Source: an uncultured archaeon (GTDB lineage Archaea; Thermoproteota; Bathyarchaeia; Bathyarchaeales; Bathycorpusculaceae). From it: DNA of 64,000 nucleotides. The DNA lies in assembly GCA_963782915.1 (NCBI GenBank), contig CAWALK010000012.1, forward strand, positions 389,169 through 453,168, read 5' to 3'. Of this stretch, positions 4,021 to 10,994 are shown piece by piece. The position numbers and the translations under genes were made by a program. The notes under the pieces are model-generated. The model did not search any database. It had not been told where the DNA came from and saw only the letters and a program-made list of their open reading frames with translations. Position 1 is the first letter of the stretch. The number at the start of each line of letters is the position of its first letter.

Positions 4021-4124
4021 TGGCGGGCGGGGAGGGATTTGAACCCTCGACCCCCAACTTAGGAGGCTGGTGCTCTATCCGTACTGAGCTTCGAGGAAGC
4101 GCCGTTTGGCGTTCTTACTCGCCC
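4021..4124 (-). tRNA. tRNA-Arg(CCU) with 26-nt BHB intron at position 9/10 (intron 4090-4115), CCA encoded
   Basis: Spliced sequence GGGCGAGUA^GCUCAGUACGGAUAGAGCACCAGCCUCCUAAGUUGGGGGUCGAGGGUUCAAAUCCCUCCCCGCCCGCCA folds as a cloverleaf; BHB helices UGGG/CUCA, CGAG/CUCG, GAA/UUC with bulges UAA and AAG. Confidence 0.93.
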
Positions 4125-5271: not shown

Positions 5272-7155
5272 TTGACCTCTAAAACCCAAACAGCAACAAT
5301 TTTTCTAGTTCTAATTATCACGGTTTCAATGCTGGCAATCATACAGCCCGCAAAAAGCCAACAACCCACCTCCTACACAGCTTATGGCCCAATAGGCACA
5401 GGACCCTACATCTACATGGGAACAGACCCTATCACTGGCGCCGTAAAGTTAGTGAAAAACGAGAACTACTGGAACAAAGATGCGCTGCAAAGTATTGGTG
5501 CATTTGGAGTTCAGGAACTTGATTTACAGTACATCCCGGGCAGCAGCGCCGCAGTTGCAGCTCTTAAAGCAGGCAACGTTTCAGTCATAAGTCCATATTA
5601 CAAACTAAGCGAGGTTACCACCCTTTCCACCTCAGGGGAAGACTATGTTAGTGCTTATGCAGGCGATGTCTTCCAGATAGACATCAATTTGCAGCATCCA
5701 GTCTTTGGAACAGGTGTAGATACACCCCTTGGCAAAGCTAACGCTTCCCGAGCTGCAGAAGCCGCACTTTACGTTCGCCAAGCTATAAGCCACCTCATTC
5801 CAAGGCAAGAAATCGTTGACAACGTATTTGACGGCATCGCTATGCCCGGAACCGTATCTGGTCTATGCCCTCTCACCACCGGATTCGATTCAACAATTCA
5901 GCCCTACTCCTACAATATCACTTTAGCAAAGCAGCTCCTCACAAAAGCCGGATACGACACAACATCAAATACAGCCAATCTATTCCACATAACCTTACTA
6001 GTTGGATCCAACATCGAAGCAACAAAAGCTACAGCTCTTTTAGTAGAGGCTAACTTGAATGCAGCAGGCATAAAAGCAGATATAGTCACTATGGATTTTG
6101 CTGGCATCATTAACCGACTATACCCTGAATCAATGGATATGCTGGGCAAAAGCTATGACCAAGGCGGCTTTGATGCCGCTTTCATAACATATGGCTATGG
6201 CGAAAATAGTACGCCCTATGACAAGTATGATAGCAGCCAATTTCCACCTACAGGCGAAAACGATAACCTTTGGAACAACACCCAAAGCGATAGCCTATGC
6301 AGTTTAATTAAGCAAACCACAAACGAAACCCAACGCCTCGCATACCTGAAGCAATGGCAACAATTATTCTACAACGAACAGCCAACTATCGTTATTGCCT
6401 ACCTTAAGGAAGCTGTTGCTTTTGATCCTCAAACCTTAGAGAAGGCACCTTTTGAAACTTACTTCCCATATATGTGGCCGGGCGCTGAAAACTGGGTGCT
6501 AAAACAGCCAACTTTGCAAGCTAAAATAGTCATGGCTGTACCGCAGCATCTCCCCGTAACGGGATATATTTTCTACTTAGGTGGATCTTCCTATGATTAT
6601 GAAGTGATTGCTGAAATTTTTGAGAGCCTAGCAACACAAAATAGTAGCAGTTTGTTTATCCCCGCTTTGGCAACTAGTTGGGAGGCTTCTGCTGACCAAA
6701 CAATTTGGACATTGCATTTACGGCAAAACGTAACTTGGCAAGACGGCGAAAAATTCAGTGCAAAAGACGTAAAATTCACCTATGACAGCGTAATGAACGA
6801 TGTAGGGCTTACAAGTACTCTAGGTTCAGCCGATAACATCCAAGTAGTTGATGAGTACACTGTGAAGTTTACTCTACCTGTTGCGGACCCAAATTTTGTC
6901 AGTGATGTCTTATTTTATCCAATTTTGCCTGCGCATATTCTTCAAAGCGTAGCATACGATGATTGGGCAACACATCCGTTCAATACTGCAGCTAACACTT
7001 ACACAGTAACTTTAAATCAAGCCGCAACTGCAACCACAAATGGCTTCTTCGACCAATACAGCATCTACATCGCAGCCCTCGTAATTGCAATAGTAATAAT
7101 CGCTACCGCTCTAGTCATTCGACAACGCCGCAAACCTAAAACAAAAAATATCTGA
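5272..7155 (+). CDS. Family 5 (peptide/nickel) ABC substrate-binding protein, circularly permuted, with C-terminal TM anchor
   Basis: Signal peptide; PIGTGPY..KNENYW at the N-terminus; IFESL..PALATSWE..LRQNVTWQDGEKFSAKDVKFT..DEYTVKFTL near the C-terminus; TM helix + basic tail. Confidence 0.85.
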   Translation: MTSKTQTATIFLVLIITVSMLAIIQPAKSQQPTSYTAYGPIGTGPYIYMGTDPITGAVKLVKNENYWNKDALQSIGAFGVQELDLQYIPGSSAAVAALKAGNVSVISPYYKLSEVTTLSTSGEDYVSAYAGDVFQIDINLQHPVFGTGVDTPLGKANASRAAEAALYVRQAISHLIPRQEIVDNVFDGIAMPGTVSGLCPLTTGFDSTIQPYSYNITLAKQLLTKAGYDTTSNTANLFHITLLVGSNIEATKATALLVEANLNAAGIKADIVTMDFAGIINRLYPESMDMLGKSYDQGGFDAAFITYGYGENSTPYDKYDSSQFPPTGENDNLWNNTQSDSLCSLIKQTTNETQRLAYLKQWQQLFYNEQPTIVIAYLKEAVAFDPQTLEKAPFETYFPYMWPGAENWVLKQPTLQAKIVMAVPQHLPVTGYIFYLGGSSYDYEVIAEIFESLATQNSSSLFIPALATSWEASADQTIWTLHLRQNVTWQDGEKFSAKDVKFTYDSVMNDVGLTSTLGSADNIQVVDEYTVKFTLPVADPNFVSDVLFYPILPAHILQSVAYDDWATHPFNTAANTYTVTLNQAATATTNGFFDQYSIYIAALVIAIVIIATALVIRQRRKPKTKNI

Positions 7156-7390
7156 TTGAGTAAACAACCGTTTACTCCTTCTTTTTTCAACCCATAATTA
7201 TTGCATTAAAAATAAGCGATAAATAACGGTTTTTTCTGATTTTAAAGTGATGCCTGCTGTTGTGTATAGAGGTTTCTTGCCAACAACTAATAGAAAAGAC
7301 ACGGTGGGATTGACGGTGGGACTTTAACCCCTGAAGGTTTCTGTAAGAGGTTTTTCTCTTTTAGAGTATTAACAACCACTCTTAGAAACA

Positions 7391-7436
7391 AAAAATACTG
7401 AAAGGGTTTGCCAGGGATAAACCCTCAGTATTTTTG
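7391..7436 (-). terminator. Long inverted repeat/T-tract immediately downstream of tRNA-Leu
   Basis: aaaaatactga(a)agggttt ... aaaccctcagtattttt hairpin. Confidence 0.5.
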
Positions 7437-7443
7437 AACATAG

Positions 7444-7569
7444 TGGTGCCGGGGGTGGGACTTGAACCCACGAAGGCCTGCGCCAGAGGATCTTAAGTCC
7501 TCCTCCATATCTTAGGGGCAAATTGTTTTTATCTGGCCACCTATTTAGACCTGGCTCGGATACCCCGGC
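7444..7569 (-). tRNA. tRNA-Leu(UAA) with 38-nt intron at position 22/23 (intron 7507-7544), CCA encoded
   Basis: Spliced GCCGGGGUAUCCGAGCCAGGUCUAA^GGAGGAGGACUUAAGAUCCUC + long variable arm + GUGGGUUCAAGUCCCACCCCCGGCACCA; relaxed BHB GUCU/AGAU, bulge AAA, UAGG/CCUA. Confidence 0.92.
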
Positions 7570-7677
7570 ACCAGCACCGATAAAGTTCAGCATGGTTCTG
7601 TTTAAGTTTTCCGATTGTACTGTGGAGTCTGGTTGTTGCCAACATAGAATTATATTTGATTCTTGAGCGTATTTGTT

Positions 7678-7829
7678 TGCAGGTTGGGGAACACGCTCCA
7701 CTAAGGCATCTGTACAAACCATGAGTAACTATTGAAGAACCCAACCAAGACAAGAATGTCAAGGAAAGGTCTTGGTAAGCACTTATGGTCGTGTATGTGC
7801 TAAGAAGTGGGGTTTAGACTCAACCTGTA
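7678..7829 (+). ncRNA. Candidate structured ncRNA, copy 1 (unknown family)
   Basis: TTATAT box at 7650-7655; rod-like fold with helices CAGGUUGGG/CUCAACCUG, GCUCCACU/AGUGGGGU, ACCAUGAGU/ACUUAUGGU, ACCAAGAC/GUCUUGGU; T-rich downstream. Confidence 0.6.
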
Positions 7830-7970
7830 ACTACTTTTAACTTTAGATTTGACCATAATTTTTTAAAGTTTAATATGCCCTTGGCTGCTTTTCCCTTGCC
7901 ACGGCTTTGTTTTGTTGCTAGCGCGTTGTAGTCACACACTATTATATCAGATGGAAAGAAAGGTGTATTT

Positions 7971-8117
7971 GCCGGTTGAGGAACACGCTTCACGGTGACA
8001 TGGGATCAGTCCTTGGTAACTGCTAAAGACCGACTCTGAGATAACATCAAGGAAATGCGGCTTTGTCAAGTGCTAAAGATGGTCAGTGATTGCTGTGGGG
8101 TTTAGACTCAACTCGGC
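7971..8117 (+). ncRNA. Candidate structured ncRNA, copy 2 (paralog of 7678-7829)
   Basis: TTATAT box at 7942-7947; GCCGGUUGAG/CUCAAC(U)CGGC closing stem; shares GGAACACGCU, GUAACU, UCAAGGAAA and an identical 18-mer gtggggtttagactcaac with copy 1. Confidence 0.6.
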
Positions 8118-8264
8118 ACCCCAAACCCTTCTCGCATAGCTTTTTTTATGTCATTACTTTTTTTTCTGGAGAATGCGCTAAATGAGCTTCAATTTATAAT
8201 AAAAATAAACACTGAAGTATGCCAAATTCCAAAAAAGAAGGTAAAAAAGGAAGCGAATCTCTTC

Positions 8265-10994
8265 TTATTGATTCGCCAATTTCTTAAACAATCCCTGTCT
8301 TCCTTCCTGAACTGCCTCTGCTGTAGCTGTACCATAAAGTTTCAAGAGAACAGAAACTAAACCCGTCCAACCTGTTTGGTGGCTTGCTCCTAACCCAGCT
8401 CCATTATCACCGTGGAAGTATTCATAGAATAATATGTTGTCTTTCCAGTTTGGGTCTGTTTGGAATTTTTCTGTACCCCCATAAACTGGTCGTTTGCCAT
8501 TACTATCGCGCAGAAAAGTCTTTGTCAATCGAGATGCAATTTCTTTGCTTACCTCAAACAGGTTCATCATTTTTCCTGAACCTGTGGGGCATTCGACTTT
8601 GAAGTCGTCACCATAGTATGAATACAGGTTTAGCAGAGCGCGACCGATGAGGATGTTTATGGGGAACCATACGGGTCCTCGCCAGTTTGAGTTTCCGCCA
8701 AAGGCTCCAGTGGTTGATTCTGCAGGTGCATATGCTATACTGAATGATTCGTTGCCTAATTGAACGTTGTAGGGGTTTTCGTAGACACGGGATAGCGATC
8801 GAATTCCGTAGGGGCCTAAAAATTCGTTTTCATCTAGCATTCTTGCAAGTACTCGACGGAGTTTGTCATCGGTCAACAAACTAAGTAAAAAGCTGCCGTT
8901 AGCGCCACGAACACCTGGTCTATGAATGTTAGCGACTAGTTCGGGATGGTTTTGAACAAACCAAGTCACGCGCTCCATAAAGTGAGGCATCTTTTCGATG
9001 TTTTCGCCTGTGAAAACGCTGTTGGCGCAAAGTGAGATTAAGCCAACCATTGAGCGGACTTTTAGCCTAACTGCCCTTCCGTCAGTATGCCGTATTACAT
9101 CATAGTAGAAGCCGTCTTCCTCATCCCATAATCCGATTCGGTCTGGTCCGCCGCTATTGAGGGCATGTGCAATCCAGAGGAAGTGTTCAAAGAATTTTAT
9201 GGCTTGGTCTTCGTAGGCTGGGTTATCTTTAGCGAGGATTGAAGCTAAAGTTAGCATGTTTTGGCTAAACATTGCCATCCATGCTGTGCCGTCTGCTTGG
9301 TCTAAAGTTACGCCTGGAGGAAATTTGGCGCTTCGGTCGAAAAGTCCAATGTTGTCTAATCCAAGAAAGCCGCCTTGAAAGAGATTGTTGCCAGCGTTGT
9401 CTTTTCGGTTTACCCACCAAGTGAAATTCATCAGCAATTTTTGGAAGGCGTTTTCAAGAAATTCTGTGTCAGCTTTGCCGTATAGCGCTTCTTCTAAGTT
9501 ATGGTTAAAAATAATTGCCCAAGCGTGAACAGGGGGGTTGACGTCGTTAAAGTTCCATTCGTAAGCTGGGAATTGGCCGTTGGGATGTAGGTAACGTTCG
9601 TTCAGCATCAGGTTTAATTGTTGCTTGGCAAAGTCTGGGTCAACCATGGATATTGCAACTGTGTGGAATGCTAAATCCCAAGCTGCATACCAGGGGTATT
9701 CCCATTTGTCAGGCATTGAGATGACATCGCTGTTAACCATGTGGAACCAGTTTATGTTTCGAACTGGTCTTTGAGATTCAGTGTAGAAATCTACATTGTG
9801 CTCGTTTAACCATTTGGCTATGTCGTATTCGTAGTATTGTTTGCTCCAAAGCATGCCCGAGAGTGCTTGCCTTAACACGTTTTTTTCGTCGTCATTAAGA
9901 GTCATTGGGCTGATTGATTCATAGAATTCGTTTGCTTCTTGTCGGCGCATGTCAAATACTCTATCGAATTCTCCATCGAACAATGTTCTACCTTGGAGGT
10001 CCTCGGGACTCATAGTGGTTAATCTTAGTTTGATGGTCTGTGACTGTTTTGCAGGTATGGTGAGTTGATAGTTTGCTGAGGTTTTGGTTCCTATTTTCGC
10101 TGGATTGATTGCGTTGTTGTCTTTGTTTACGATGTAGTTGTTGATTCCGTCTTTGACGTATTGGGTTAGGTTTGTTGTTCCGAATAGGCGTTGGTTGTTG
10201 TTTTCGTTTTCTGTAAAAAGTAGAGGGACTGTTCCTTGGGCGTATAAGTAGCGTTTTCCTAAAAATTGATGCTCGGCTACTGCGGCACTTACATTTTGCA
10301 TTTCGACTAATTCTTTTATTATTGGACGTTCAACTGGGGTTTTGCTTCCATACCATATGTTGCGGAACCATAGGGTTGGAAGTATGTTTAGTGTTGCAGC
10401 TTGGTCGCCTCGGTTGTGCGCGGTTATTTGGATTAGGATGTCTTCGGGTGATTCTTTGGCGTACTCTATGAATACGTCGAAGTAGCGGTCTTCGTTAAAG
10501 ATTCCAGTATCTAATAATTCGTATTCGAATTGGTATCTGTTTCTTGATTTGTTTGTGTTGGCTAAGTCGGTGTAGGGATATGCGTTTTGGGGGTATTTGT
10601 AGAGGTACTTCATGTATGAGTGGGTGGGTGTGCTGTCGAGGTAGAAGTAGTATTCTTTTACGTCTTCGCCGTGGTTGCCTTCACTGTTGGTTAAGCCGAA
10701 TATTCTTTCTTTGAGGATTGGGTCTACTCCGTTCCATAGTGCAACTGAGAAGCATAGGTATTGTTTGTCATCGGAGATTCCGCCGATTCCGTCTTCTCCC
10801 CAGTGATAAGCTCTGGAGCGGGATTGGTCATGTGAAAAGTAATCCCAGGCTGCTCCGTCGTTACTGTAATCTTCCCTTACTGTTCCCCATTGCCGCTCGC
10901 TTAGGTAGGGTCCCCATTTGCGCCAGGGTACATGCTGGTCGCGTGCTTCGTCTAGCCTAATTTTTTCTATAGACAAATCATTCAACCTCTTCAA
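8265..10994 (-). CDS. GH63/MGH1-like glucosidase
   Basis: WGPYLSERQWGTVREDYS, SMPDKWEYPWYAAWDLAFH, SNWRGPVW, FYEYFHGDNGAGLGASHQTGWT. Confidence 0.9.
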   Translation of the reverse strand: MKRLNDLSIEKIRLDEARDQHVPWRKWGPYLSERQWGTVREDYSNDGAAWDYFSHDQSRSRAYHWGEDGIGGISDDKQYLCFSVALWNGVDPILKERIFGLTNSEGNHGEDVKEYYFYLDSTPTHSYMKYLYKYPQNAYPYTDLANTNKSRNRYQFEYELLDTGIFNEDRYFDVFIEYAKESPEDILIQITAHNRGDQAATLNILPTLWFRNIWYGSKTPVERPIIKELVEMQNVSAAVAEHQFLGKRYLYAQGTVPLLFTENENNNQRLFGTTNLTQYVKDGINNYIVNKDNNAINPAKIGTKTSANYQLTIPAKQSQTIKLRLTTMSPEDLQGRTLFDGEFDRVFDMRRQEANEFYESISPMTLNDDEKNVLRQALSGMLWSKQYYEYDIAKWLNEHNVDFYTESQRPVRNINWFHMVNSDVISMPDKWEYPWYAAWDLAFHTVAISMVDPDFAKQQLNLMLNERYLHPNGQFPAYEWNFNDVNPPVHAWAIIFNHNLEEALYGKADTEFLENAFQKLLMNFTWWVNRKDNAGNNLFQGGFLGLDNIGLFDRSAKFPPGVTLDQADGTAWMAMFSQNMLTLASILAKDNPAYEDQAIKFFEHFLWIAHALNSGGPDRIGLWDEEDGFYYDVIRHTDGRAVRLKVRSMVGLISLCANSVFTGENIEKMPHFMERVTWFVQNHPELVANIHRPGVRGANGSFLLSLLTDDKLRRVLARMLDENEFLGPYGIRSLSRVYENPYNVQLGNESFSIAYAPAESTTGAFGGNSNWRGPVWFPINILIGRALLNLYSYYGDDFKVECPTGSGKMMNLFEVSKEIASRLTKTFLRDSNGKRPVYGGTEKFQTDPNWKDNILFYEYFHGDNGAGLGASHQTGWTGLVSVLLKLYGTATAEAVQEGRQGLFKKLANQ

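What the first reader, a model, noticed from the sequence alone, without database searches (positions are those of the whole stretch)
7645..8150. Two paralogous, separately promoted ~150-nt rod-shaped RNAs of unknown family
Seen: in an apparently empty intergenic region, two diverged copies (7678-7829, 7971-8117) each have TTATAT ~25 nt upstream and a T-rich tract downstream. Stem sequences differ but keep pairing: CAG/CUG vs GCCG/CGGC; GCUCCACU/AGUGGGGU vs GCUUCACGGU/GCUGUGGGGU; ACCAUGAGU/ACUUAUGGU vs GAUCA/UGGUC and UUGGU/GCUAA. Unpaired parts are conserved: a GAACAC/UUAGA internal loop with tandem G-A potential (K-turn-like), an asymmetric bubble AACURYURAAGA / AAG, and apical UCAAGGAAA. 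Covarying stems with conserved loops indicate a functional RNA. It does not match 5S, SRP, RNase P, C/D, H/ACA or the riboswitch consensus sequences I can recall. The rod-with-bubble shape loosely recalls 6S RNA or a protein-sponge RNA, which is speculation.
Basis: partly seen in the sequence, partly recalled or inferred. Interest (0 to 1): 0.78.

Follow-up and report, generated by a model that had tools for sequence, protein, structure and literature searches.

The report
Stand-alone circular RNA genes, Bathyarchaeia
These two small genes make hairpin transcripts whose bases have the shape cut by the tRNA-splicing enzyme, and in environmental RNA data the inner part is found closed into rings of about 120 bases: an undescribed RNA family of Bathyarchaeia that travels with an uncharacterised nuclease gene.

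Summary
Two paralogous hairpin RNA genes (7678-7829 and 7971-8119, + strand) each have a TTATAT box about 25 nt upstream and a T-run downstream. A third copy lies on another contig. Rfam has no match. Homologues occur in 44 of 61 genomes of the genus, and 36 of 46 stem pairs show compensatory changes.

The reading changes in one respect. The "K-turn-like" basal loop is a bulge-helix-bulge (BHB) splice motif. RNA-library contigs from four studies cover only 7695-7817 and 7987-8105, and they join 7817 back to 7695 and 8105 back to 7987. The mature RNAs are therefore rings of 123 and 119 nt, cut two bases past a covarying 4-bp central helix on each strand. The genome encodes two EndA-type subunits and RtcB.

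In other genera, families and orders of the class, a single ancestral copy lies head-to-head with a conserved gene of about 220 aa. That gene has no named family, a PD-(D/E)xK nuclease fold, and invariant E, D, E and K residues. In 212 genomes sampled, the RNA turned up without this gene only twice, both times in incomplete genomes.

Biogenesis is well supported. A ring-nuclease particle is inferred, and its function is unknown. I rate this a new variant of a known kind.

The parts
7650..7655 (+). TTATAT box (archaeal TATA-like) of copy A, 25 nt before the hairpin
   Evidence: Sequence. The same box and spacing appear in homologues of two other genomes. The transcription start was not mapped.
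7680..7688 (+). Copy A, 5' strand of outer helix A (CAGGUUGGG); 5' 'mini-exon', not part of the ring
   Evidence: Fold. Covariation of helix A across 66 homologues. No cover in RNA contigs.
7689..7695 (+). Copy A, BHB 5' side: central-helix strand GAAC (7689-7692) and bulge AC^G (7693-7695); cut between 7694 and 7695
   Evidence: Back-joint 7817->7695 in RNA contigs of X1 and X20. Central-helix covariation.
7695..7817 (+). Copy A mature product: 123-nt circular rod RNA (junction ...GGGGUUUAG|GCUCCAC...)
   Evidence: Joint 'goes back 123' in two RNA runs of two studies; cover is confined to this span. The circular fold is a closed rod at -35.2 kcal/mol.
7747..7765 (+). Copy A apical conserved element (AAGACAAGAAUGUCAAGGA; the GAC/GUC mini-stem replaces the GAU/AUC of other copies)
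   Evidence: Alignments A4 and A5.
7812..7818 (+). Copy A, BHB 3' side: central-helix strand GUUU (7812-7815) and bulge AG^A (7816-7818); cut between 7817 and 7818
7819..7827 (+). Copy A, 3' strand of helix A (CUCAACCUG); 3' 'mini-exon'
7835..7838 (+). T-run after copy A (likely terminator)
   Evidence: Sequence only.
7942..7947 (+). TTATAT box of copy B, 24 nt before the hairpin
   Evidence: Sequence.
7971..7980 (+). Copy B, 5' strand of helix A (GCCGGUUGAG)
7981..7987 (+). Copy B, BHB 5' side: GAAC (7981-7984) and bulge AC^G (7985-7987); cut between 7986 and 7987
   Evidence: Back-joint 8105->7987. Covariation.
7987..8105 (+). Copy B mature product: 119-nt circular rod RNA
   Evidence: X17 contig of 149 nt (119 + 30 overlap), depth 100.9, joint 'goes back 119'. 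X19 contig of 148 nt, depth 423, whose loose ends wrap round the same junction. No cover of 7944-7977 or 8148 onward in any of the four runs; in X17 and X19 none beyond 8113.
8036..8053 (+). Copy B apical conserved element CUGAGAUAACAUCAAGGA (core GAUNNYAUCAA kept across families)
   Evidence: Alignments A5 and A6.
8100..8106 (+). Copy B, BHB 3' side: GUUU (8100-8103) and bulge AG^A (8104-8106); cut between 8105 and 8106
8107..8117 (+). Copy B, 3' strand of helix A (CUCAAC-U-CGGC)
8141..8147 (+). T-run after copy B (likely terminator)
   Evidence: Sequence only.

Best explanation
Both loci are stand-alone genes for a stable circular non-coding RNA found in Bathyarchaeia.

How the ring is made:
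1. Each gene is transcribed from its own TATA-type promoter as a hairpin of about 150-160 nt. This is inferred from the sequence.
2. The base of the hairpin can adopt a bulge-helix-bulge. It consists of an outer helix (GUUGAG/CUCAAC), a 4-bp central helix (GAAC/GUUU), a 3-nt bulge AG^A on the 3' strand, and a 3- or 4-nt bulge AC^G(C) on the 5' strand.
3. The tRNA-splicing endonuclease cuts two bases past the central helix on each strand, and RtcB joins the ends of the excised piece. The genome has two EndA-type subunits, so the enzyme is probably the alpha-beta type. The cut positions and the ring are shown by RNA-library contigs. The identity of the enzymes is inferred from the geometry and from the genes being present.
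4. The product is a covalently closed rod of 123 nt (copy A) or 119 nt (copy B). A conserved UUAG loop sits at the junction end and a conserved GAGAUAACAUCAA-type element at the other end.

What the ring does (inferred, about even odds): it works with a conserved protein of about 220 aa. The protein has a PD-(D/E)xK nuclease fold and no named family. Its gene lies head-to-head with the single ancestral RNA gene in many Bathyarchaeia, and it is followed by a small GIY-YIG nuclease gene in this family of genomes. The ring would be a bound cofactor, scaffold or regulator of that nuclease. In this genome the ancestral neighbour copy is lost and three dispersed paralogues remain. What the particle acts on is unknown.
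For: The ring:
- Four RNA runs from four studies cover only 7695-7817 and 7987-8105.
- Joints 7817->7695 appear in X1 (depth 6.9) and X20 (depth 3.04).
- The joint 8105->7987 appears in X17 (depth 100.9).
- An X19 contig of depth 423 has ends that wrap round the same junction.
- Contig lengths of 149 and 148 nt equal 119 plus the word overlap, as a cyclic graph gives.
- Relatives' contigs show the same ...GGUUUAG|GCUYCAC junction in their loose ends.

The BHB (66 distinct homologues):
- Central-helix pair 3 is A-U in 40 and G-C in 23.
- Pair 4 is C-G in 55, U.G in 6 and U-A in 1.
- Pair 1 is G.U in 51 and A-U in 13.
- The bulges are ANG in 62 and AGR in 65.
- Helix A covaries.
- Both cuts lie two bases 3' of the central helix. 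The BHB is defined as a 4-bp helix between two 3-nt bulges (passages in PMC4090602, PMC6379350, PMC7714728).
- The alpha-beta EndA of TACK archaea accepts other bulge lengths (passage in PMC7714728).

The enzymes: two PF01974 reading frames of 189 and 184 aa, and one RtcB.

A conserved family:
- 44 of 61 genomes of the genus carry it.
- 24 of 151 genomes of the order carry it under strict filters.
- Rod covariation is given.

The partner protein:
- Seven neighbour reading frames are 53-67% identical to each other.
- The AF2 model has pLDDT 86.
- Its best structural matches all have the restriction-endonuclease-like fold (Foldseek 4g6v, E 1.2e-4; VIA 3dnx Z 9.9, 2okf Z 9.3, 1y88 Z 9.0).
- E78, D88, E101 and K126 are invariant in 40 diverse members.
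- All 24 RNA-positive genomes of the order sample have the protein.
- In the genus sample 42 have both, 10 the protein only, 2 the RNA only (56% and 71% complete) and 7 neither.
- The divergent head-to-head arrangement holds in 11 of the 15 RNA-positive genomes outside the genus.
- It holds in a further 8 of 20 loci of the same order.
- It holds in 3 of 8 loci of the genus.
- It holds in 5 of 20 loci of other orders.
Against: Limits of the RNA evidence:
- It consists of assembled contigs, not raw reads. It gives no strand, no ends and no RNase R test, and no DNA run was laid as a control.
- The runs are metagenomic. Some contigs carry differences and come from relatives.

Limits of the BHB reading:
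- The BHB conformer is not the minimum-energy fold. It costs about 5 kcal/mol (-49.0 against -54.1 for copy B; -48.9 against -54.0 for copy A).
- In that conformer the 5' bulge has 4 nt, because one G is shared between two alternative pairs.
- The bulge and helix A sequences are far more conserved than EndA is known to need. This hints at a further reader of these bases.

Against the protein link:
- The protein is found in 152 of 301 genomes of the class, but model R2 finds no RNA in 5 of 5 protein-positive genomes tested whole (4 of one large family, 1 of another).
- No RNA was found near the protein gene in 11 of 20 loci or in 13 of 20.
- Ten genomes of the genus have the protein without a detected RNA.
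- In this genome no RNA copy is near the protein gene.
- No binding test was possible.
- The stems hold all the variable sequence, so nothing looks like a programmable guide.
Confidence: 0.8

Rival explanations
1. The functional product is the spliced-together pair of 'mini-exons': a hairpin of about 35-40 nt with helix A and a 7-nt loop GAACACA. On this view the ring is only a stable excised intron.
For: Helix A and the bases that would form the ligated loop are among the most conserved in the family, although they are not in the ring. EndA needs shape, not sequence (recalled).
Against: The ring holds strongly conserved loops and 30 or more covarying pairs. It reaches depths of 100-423 in RNA contigs. 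No skip joint 7694->7818 or 7986->8106 was listed, but so short an RNA could not give a contig.
Confidence: 0.1
2. The cuts are made by the associated PD-(D/E)xK (or GIY-YIG) nuclease as a dedicated processing enzyme, not by EndA. Another ligase then closes the ring.
For: The RNA is almost never found without the protein. The bulge sequences are conserved beyond the needs of EndA. The best Foldseek match is a tRNA-cutting toxin domain of this fold (4g6v); its tRNA-cutting activity is recalled.
Against: The cut sites have exactly the two-fold spacing of a BHB around a covarying 4-bp helix. EndA subunits and RtcB are present. Most proteins of this fold cut DNA (recalled). EndA itself was not among the 50 best fold matches, so the protein is not a disguised EndA (a weak test).
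Confidence: 0.08
3. One reading: a linear rod sRNA of about 150 nt with a K-turn, acting like 6S RNA or as a protein sponge.
For: Rod shape and conserved loops. A possible K-turn-like arrangement at the apical element (CUGA-GAU...AUC-AAG-GA), from reading the sequence only.
Against: RNA contigs lack the terminal stem and carry the back-joint. The basal loop bases pair as a covarying helix. No Rfam 6S or other match. There is no large central bubble.
Confidence: 0.04
4. A selfish or virus-derived BHB cassette (intron-like mobile element) with no cellular function. Its place next to the nuclease gene would reflect a homing-type element.
For: There are 1-4 copies per genome, some in tandem. The neighbours are nuclease genes. 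Archaeal BHB introns with homing endonucleases exist (recalled).
Against: Protein E-values track taxonomy and the gene is single-copy, as expected for vertical descent. The loops are conserved across orders. Of 130 word matches in viral contigs, 98 were tested and gave one weak match, which is not a rod. No PADLOC match at E up to 0.1; in PHROGs only one match, at E 0.067.
Confidence: 0.03

Closest known systems
Circular SRP RNA of Thermoproteus, made from a permuted gene by BHB cleavage and ligation (PMC4731332; search listing and start of abstract only)
   Same: A functional non-coding RNA other than tRNA or rRNA that is produced as a ring by the tRNA-splicing machinery at a BHB formed by the ends of its own transcript.
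   Different: That RNA is a known RNA (SRP) whose gene is permuted. Here the ring belongs to no known family, and the genome has a normal SRP RNA elsewhere. Here there are several paralogues and a linked nuclease-fold gene.
Excised circular tRNA introns, including the tRNA-Trp intron that is a C/D box guide RNA (passages in PMC4090602, PMC12558985, PMC7714728)
   Same: BHB, cuts within the bulges, circular product. Some such introns have a function of their own.
   Different: There is no host tRNA. The 'exons' are only a stem of about 10-16 nt on each side. The gene has its own promoter. No C/D boxes were recognised.
BHB intron in the 5' UTR of Haloferax volcanii HVO_1309 and in crenarchaeal cbf5 mRNA (passages in PMC7714728)
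   Same: EndA substrates outside tRNA and rRNA. The excised piece is detected as a ring.
   Different: Those sit in mRNAs, where splicing matters for the host message. Here no coding host exists, and the excised piece is the conserved, structured part.
Circular non-coding RNAs of unknown function in Sulfolobus (passages in PMC3326292) and circular omega-RNA isoforms (passages in PMC12558985)
   Same: Circular small non-coding RNAs in archaea.
   Different: The term 'BHB' occurs nowhere in the main text of PMC3326292, and PMC12558985 found no BHB at its circular omega-RNAs. Circular forms there are often minor. Here the ring is the only form seen in three of the four RNA runs (X17, X19, X20; X1 also has a low-depth linear contig of a relative across the 3' cut site) and the BHB is conserved.
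PD-(D/E)xK proteins of unknown role: SPO1766 (3dnx), XisH-type (2okf, 2inb), AF1548 (1y88)
   Same: The core fold of residues 65-220 of the partner protein (Z 9.0-9.9). Conserved acidic residues and a lysine.
   Different: No sequence family in common. The partner has an added N-terminal helical hairpin. Association with a circular RNA gene is, to my knowledge, not reported for any of them (recalled, not searched).

Membership tests
Bulge-helix-bulge (BHB) substrate of the archaeal splicing endonuclease | Central helix of 4 base pairs between the two bulges | tested here: met
   GAAC/GUUU in both window copies. Over 66 distinct homologues, the four pairs are standard in 64, 65, 64 and 62, with compensatory A-U/G-C exchange at pair 3 (40 against 23).
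Bulge-helix-bulge (BHB) substrate of the archaeal splicing endonuclease | 3-nt bulge on the 3' strand next to the outer helix | tested here: met
   AGA in 55, AGG in 10 and UGA in 1 of 66.
Bulge-helix-bulge (BHB) substrate of the archaeal splicing endonuclease | 3-nt bulge on the 5' strand next to the inner helix | tested here: inconclusive
   ANG in 62 of 66, followed by CU in 61. With the covariation-supported register of the inner helix, the bulge is 4 nt (ACGC). Relaxed bulge lengths are accepted by alpha-beta EndA (passage in PMC7714728).
Bulge-helix-bulge (BHB) substrate of the archaeal splicing endonuclease | Cuts at symmetric places in the two bulges; excised piece ligated to a ring | tested here: met
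   The joints 7817->7695 and 8105->7987 put both cuts two bases 3' of the central helix. The rule that the cut falls after the second bulge base is recalled from tRNA position 37/38, not read in a paper.
Bulge-helix-bulge (BHB) substrate of the archaeal splicing endonuclease | Cleavage by EndA and ligation by RtcB | not testable with these tools
   The genes are present: two PF01974 matches and one PF01139 match in the genome.
   After a 3-nt bulge, the 5' strand has CA, not GA. The bases in question form a covarying Watson-Crick helix instead. The consensus is recalled.
6S RNA | Rod of about 180 nt with a large central bubble that mimics an open promoter; match to the Rfam 6S models | tested here: not met
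   No Rfam match. The folds show only small internal loops. The mature form is a ring.
tRNA intron / tricRNA | Excised from a pre-tRNA whose exons form a tRNA | tested here: not met
   No tRNA was found by ARAGORN or Rfam over the loci. The flanks are 10-16 nt stems ending at a promoter and a T-run.
C/D box sRNA | Boxes C (RUGAUGA) and D (CUGA) brought together as a K-turn | tested here: not met
   No RUGAUGA in either copy on reading. No Rfam C/D family match at E up to 10 over the two RNA loci; the single weak C/D-type row (Afu_300, 14.9 bits against a gathering score of 40) lies at 7217-7241, outside them.
PD-(D/E)xK nuclease superfamily (partner protein, outside the window) | Restriction-endonuclease-like alpha/beta core | tested here: met
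   AF2 model pLDDT 86.1, pTM 0.82; the other four models scored 50-66. Foldseek and VIA matches are given.
PD-(D/E)xK nuclease superfamily (partner protein, outside the window) | Catalytic D ... (D/E)-x-K residues | tested here: inconclusive
   D88 and E101 are invariant, E103 nearly so. The invariant lysine (K126) lies on the next helix rather than in the ExK position. No Pfam or NCBIfam family matched.

The most novel reading that the evidence does not exclude
The ring is the obligatory RNA subunit, or the built-in regulator, of an undescribed nuclease particle of Bathyarchaeia. The particle would consist of a PD-(D/E)xK protein, in this family with a GIY-YIG partner, and a covalently closed RNA made by the tRNA-splicing machinery. 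This would be the first case of a dedicated circular RNA gene serving a protein enzyme in archaea. Stand-alone 'intron-only' genes would then be a general archaeal way to make stable RNA rings.
Probability: 0.3. Interest if true: 0.9.

Novelty: new variant of a known kind. Interest (0 to 1): 0.8.

Why it matters
Known substrates of the archaeal splicing endonuclease are tRNAs, rRNA precursors, two mRNAs and one permuted SRP RNA (passages in PMC7714728; abstract of PMC4731332). This family is different in three ways:
- It is a gene whose only conserved product is the excised, circularised piece.
- RNA data place the junction to the base.
- It is conserved across orders of an abundant, uncultured archaeal class.

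It also gives a first functional handle on a conserved "hypothetical protein" family. That family has 4045 relatives in one search and 246 clusters in another, none of them named.

If the ring and the nuclease work together, this opens a new kind of RNA-protein system. The defined BHB cassette is also a natural design for making RNA rings in cells.

Tried and rejected
- Rfam matches on eight distant homologue loci: none.
- Identity with SRP RNA, 5S rRNA or RNase P RNA: rejected. All three are present elsewhere in the genome.
- First pattern search with too narrow a gap: it missed copies A and B.
Only 7 of the 80 fetched loci were real, all labelled Bathyarchaeota or Bathyarchaeia.
- An RNA copy beside the protein gene in this genome: none. 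There is only a 36-nt stem that may be a remnant.
- Antisense targets of the apical loop: the exact complement of a 13-nt core occurs nowhere else in the genome, and 10 one-mismatch sites look like chance. This is a weak test.
- Sequence relatives of the protein among solved structures: only a marginal partial match to RNA polymerase subunit RPAC1 (E 0.0013), judged to be chance.
- NCBIfam: only YraN at E 0.06.
- PADLOC, PHROGs and the protein atlas gave no named family.
- Model R2 on five whole protein-positive genomes found nothing. This may mean the RNA is absent or that it has diverged too far.
- Viral contigs: of 130 word matches, 98 were tested. The one weak match is not a rod.
- ARAGORN with intron search found no tRNA at 7200-7650.
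- Parts of the stretch without RNA cover (flanks, terminal stems) are not evidence of absence on their own.
- Earlier notes of this scan by sequence and by place: nothing.
Full report
**The observation**

The region between a solute-binding protein gene (5272-7155, +) and a GH63-like glycosidase gene (8265-10994, -) has no convincing reading frame. It holds two related hairpins on the + strand.

- Copy A (7678-7829) folds as an unbranched rod at -57.0 kcal/mol (z -4.72).
- Copy B (7971-8119) folds as an unbranched rod at -55.8 kcal/mol (z -4.45).
- None of 200 shuffles folds as well.
- The reverse strands fold worse (z -3.58 and -0.55), which fixes the strand.
- Each copy has TTATAT 24-25 nt before the hairpin (7650-7655, 7942-7947) and a T-run after it (7835-7838, 8141-8147).
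- The copies align at 77% mean column identity.
- Rfam gives nothing at gathering scores except a tRNA at 4031-4092, and nothing credible at E up to 10.

**A conserved family**

A third, shorter paralogue with a UUCG tip lies on contig 20 of the same genome (G000:C20:239092-239224, - strand; z -6.46).

A covariance model built from five sequences found the RNA in 44 of 61 genomes of the genus. That is 32 of 38 among the high-quality genomes, with 1-4 copies each.

Forty-one matches (40 distinct) aligned to the model gave the following:
- 86.8% of cells are paired, against 27-43% when partners are slid.
- 36 of 46 pairs have changes on both sides.
- 0 of 500 shuffles reach the observed values.
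- Two caveats apply: the alignment was fitted to the structure, and the sequences are kin.

A second model found the RNA in 24 of 151 genomes of the order under strict filters. Outside the genus it is a single copy of about 170 nt (sequences).

Named records that hold a true match are all labelled Bathyarchaeota or Bathyarchaeia. They are 7 of the 80 loci fetched by a degenerate pattern scan; the other 73 were chance matches.

The genome has ordinary SRP RNA, 5S rRNA and RNase P RNA elsewhere.

**The mature RNA is a ring**

I laid contigs of four RNA libraries from four studies on 7400-8400. Within the two RNA loci they cover only 7695-7817 and 7987-8105; the only other cover is one low-depth X20 contig over 7439-7483, in the neighbouring tRNA-like gene.

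- They contain joints that go back from 7817 to 7695 (X1 depth 6.9; X20 depth 3.04) and from 8105 to 7987 (X17 depth 100.9).
- A 148-nt X19 contig of depth 423 carries the last bases of the span before its first base, and the first bases after its last base.
- The 149-nt X17 contig equals 119 nt plus a 30-nt overlap. A circular molecule gives exactly this in a word graph.
- Loose ends from relatives show the same ...GGUUUAG|GCUYCAC junction.
- Tandem DNA copies, which exist in some relatives, would keep the terminal stem at the joint. These joints do not.

Limits:
- These are assembled contigs without strand or end information.
- They come from metagenomes.
- No DNA run was laid.

**The basal "internal loop" is a bulge-helix-bulge**

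The joints place the cuts at GGAACAC^GCU and UUUAG^ACUCAAC. If GAAC is paired with GUUU, the base of the hairpin reads as follows:
- an outer helix (GUUGAG/CUCAAC);
- a 4-bp central helix;
- a 3-nt bulge AG^A on the 3' strand;
- a bulge AC^G on the 5' strand.

Both cuts then fall two bases past the central helix.

Across 66 distinct homologues:
- The central helix covaries. Pair 3 is A-U in 40 and G-C in 23. Pair 4 is C-G in 55, U.G in 6 and U-A in 1. Pair 1 is G.U in 51 and A-U in 13.
- The bulges are ANG (62 of 66) and AGR (65 of 66).
- Helix A covaries.
- Predicted rings measure 99-138 nt, with one of 195.

The BHB is defined in the literature as a 4-bp helix flanked by two 3-nt bulges. The alpha-beta enzyme of TACK archaea tolerates other bulge lengths (passages in PMC4090602, PMC6379350, PMC7714728).

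The genome has two EndA-type reading frames of 189 and 184 aa, and one RtcB.

Two reservations:
- The BHB conformer costs about 5 kcal/mol relative to the rod minimum. In it the 5' bulge has four bases, because one G is shared between two alternative pairs.
- The bulge and helix A sequences are conserved more than the enzyme should need.

Folded as a circle, each product is a closed rod with a UUAG loop at the junction and the conserved apical element at the other end.

**A linked protein**

In seven distant genomes, the gene lying head-to-head with the RNA gene encodes a protein of about 215-250 aa. It has no Pfam match, and the seven are 53-67% identical to each other.

What the protein is:
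- It has no NCBIfam, PADLOC or PHROG family and no useful relative among solved structures by sequence.
- Its 4045 relatives in one search are all unnamed or "hypothetical".
- It forms only 246 clusters among 1.84 billion representatives.
- An AF2 model (pLDDT 86.1, pTM 0.82; the other four models were poorer) has an N-terminal helical hairpin and a restriction-endonuclease-like core.
- Foldseek gives 4g6v at E 1.2e-4, then XisH, SfsA, Can2, Hjc and FokI.
- VIA-align gives 3dnx Z 9.9, 2okf Z 9.3, 1y88 Z 9.0 and NucS Z 7.5. EndA is not among the best 50.
- In 40 diverse members E78, D88, E101 and K126 are invariant, and H57, E103, T104, R122, Y130 and S131 nearly so. An active nuclease is therefore plausible.

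How the protein and the RNA are distributed:
- The protein is single-copy in 89 of 151 genomes of the order and in 152 of 301 of the class. Its E-values follow taxonomy.
- All 24 RNA-positive genomes of the order sample have it.
- In the genus sample of 61, 42 have both, 10 the protein only, 2 the RNA only (56% and 71% complete) and 7 neither. The odds ratio is 14.7. Kin are not independent, so this figure is descriptive only.
- The divergent adjacency holds in 11 of the 15 RNA-positive genomes outside the genus.
- It holds in 8 of 20 further loci of the order searched without filters.
- It holds in 3 of 8 loci of the genus, where an ancestral-type 171-nt copy persists.
- It holds in 5 of 20 loci from other orders, plus two weaker matches and one seen by eye.

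In this genome the protein gene is at C20:87039-87698. No RNA copy is beside it. Only a 36-nt stem is there, which may be a remnant.

In all 11 loci of this family that I examined, a GIY-YIG gene of 84-102 aa follows the protein gene; Pfam confirmed it in 3 of them. In another family a DUF123 gene precedes it.

**Evidence against a strict link**

- Model R2 finds no RNA anywhere in 5 of 5 protein-positive genomes tested whole.
- It finds none near the protein gene in 11 of 20 loci or in 13 of 20.
- The protein is thus more widespread than the detectable RNA. Either the RNA has diverged beyond the model, or the protein can work without it.
- No tool here can test RNA-protein binding.

**Reading**

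Shown:
- a conserved, covarying RNA family with its own promoter signals;
- a ring with a base-exact junction in RNA libraries;
- cut sites that match a covarying BHB;
- the presence of the enzymes.

Inferred:
- that EndA and RtcB make the ring;
- that the ring works with the PD-(D/E)xK protein, at about even odds.

Unknown: what the pair does. All variable sequence is in paired stems, so a programmable guide is unlikely. A bound cofactor, scaffold or regulator is the more natural role.

Rivals:
- the ligated mini-exon hairpin is the real product;
- the linked nuclease itself makes the cuts;
- a linear K-turn RNA;
- a selfish cassette.

**Comparison and novelty**

Full-text searches turned up no description of this RNA or of stand-alone BHB ring genes in Bathyarchaeia.

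- PMC7714728 lists tRNA, rRNA, cbf5 mRNA and one 5' UTR as BHB substrates (passages).
- PMC4731332 describes the circular SRP RNA (listing and start of abstract).
- PMC3326292 reports circular non-coding RNAs of unknown function; the term BHB does not occur in its main text (passages).
- I did not open any supplementary files, and they could list further rings.
- Earlier unchecked notes of this scan predicted stand-alone BHB ring genes in Asgard archaea from sequence alone. I saw them after reaching this reading. They add that the design may be widespread.

I therefore rate this a new variant of a known kind: BHB-made rings are known, but a dedicated, conserved ring gene with a linked nuclease gene is not.

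Noticed in passing
window 7447-7572 (-): Probable tRNA gene of about 126 nt. It has a clear T-arm (GUGGGUUCAAGUCCCAC), a matching acceptor stem and an encoded CCA, so it must carry one or more insertions or introns. ARAGORN (also with intron search) and Rfam at gathering score miss it; Rfam gives only a 16.3-bit match of the tRNA clan.
   Followed up: partly
window 7300-7345 (-): A second short stretch that reads like a T-arm and the 3' part of a tRNA (GGGGUUAAAGUCCCACC...). Not examined.
   Followed up: no
L203:2187-2453 (+) = G000 contig 20, right after the PD-(D/E)xK gene: A GIY-YIG nuclease gene of 88 aa (PF01541, E 3.8e-19) overlaps the stop codon of the PD-(D/E)xK gene by 4 nt. A like-sized GIY-YIG frame follows the gene in all 11 loci of this family that I looked at. 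In another family, a DUF123 gene sits just upstream instead.
   Followed up: partly
L203:1246-1281 (-): A 36-nt stem (UUAGUUG...CAACUUGG) lies where relatives have the ancestral RNA copy. It is possibly what is left after deletion of the ring-coding part.
   Followed up: partly
L190:1499-1728 (-) (genome G189): A 230-nt variant of the RNA with an internally duplicated module (predicted ring of 195 nt). It lies far from the protein gene on the same contig.
   Followed up: no
G148:C6:53494-53792 and G046:C1:410083-410393: Head-to-tail tandem RNA genes that abut or overlap by a few bases, so one transcript could yield two rings.
   Followed up: no
G000:C25:81043-81180 (+): A weak second match to archaeal RNase P RNA (33.7 bits, below the cut-off) a few kb from a 5S rRNA gene. 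The true RNase P RNA is on contig 15.
   Followed up: no
L256 about 210-360 nt upstream of the protein gene (genome G212): A GC-rich rod with the same BHB (GGGU/GCUU, bulges AAG and AGA) but no recognisable apical element. The model barely sees it, so the RNA is probably under-counted in GC-rich lineages.
   Followed up: partly
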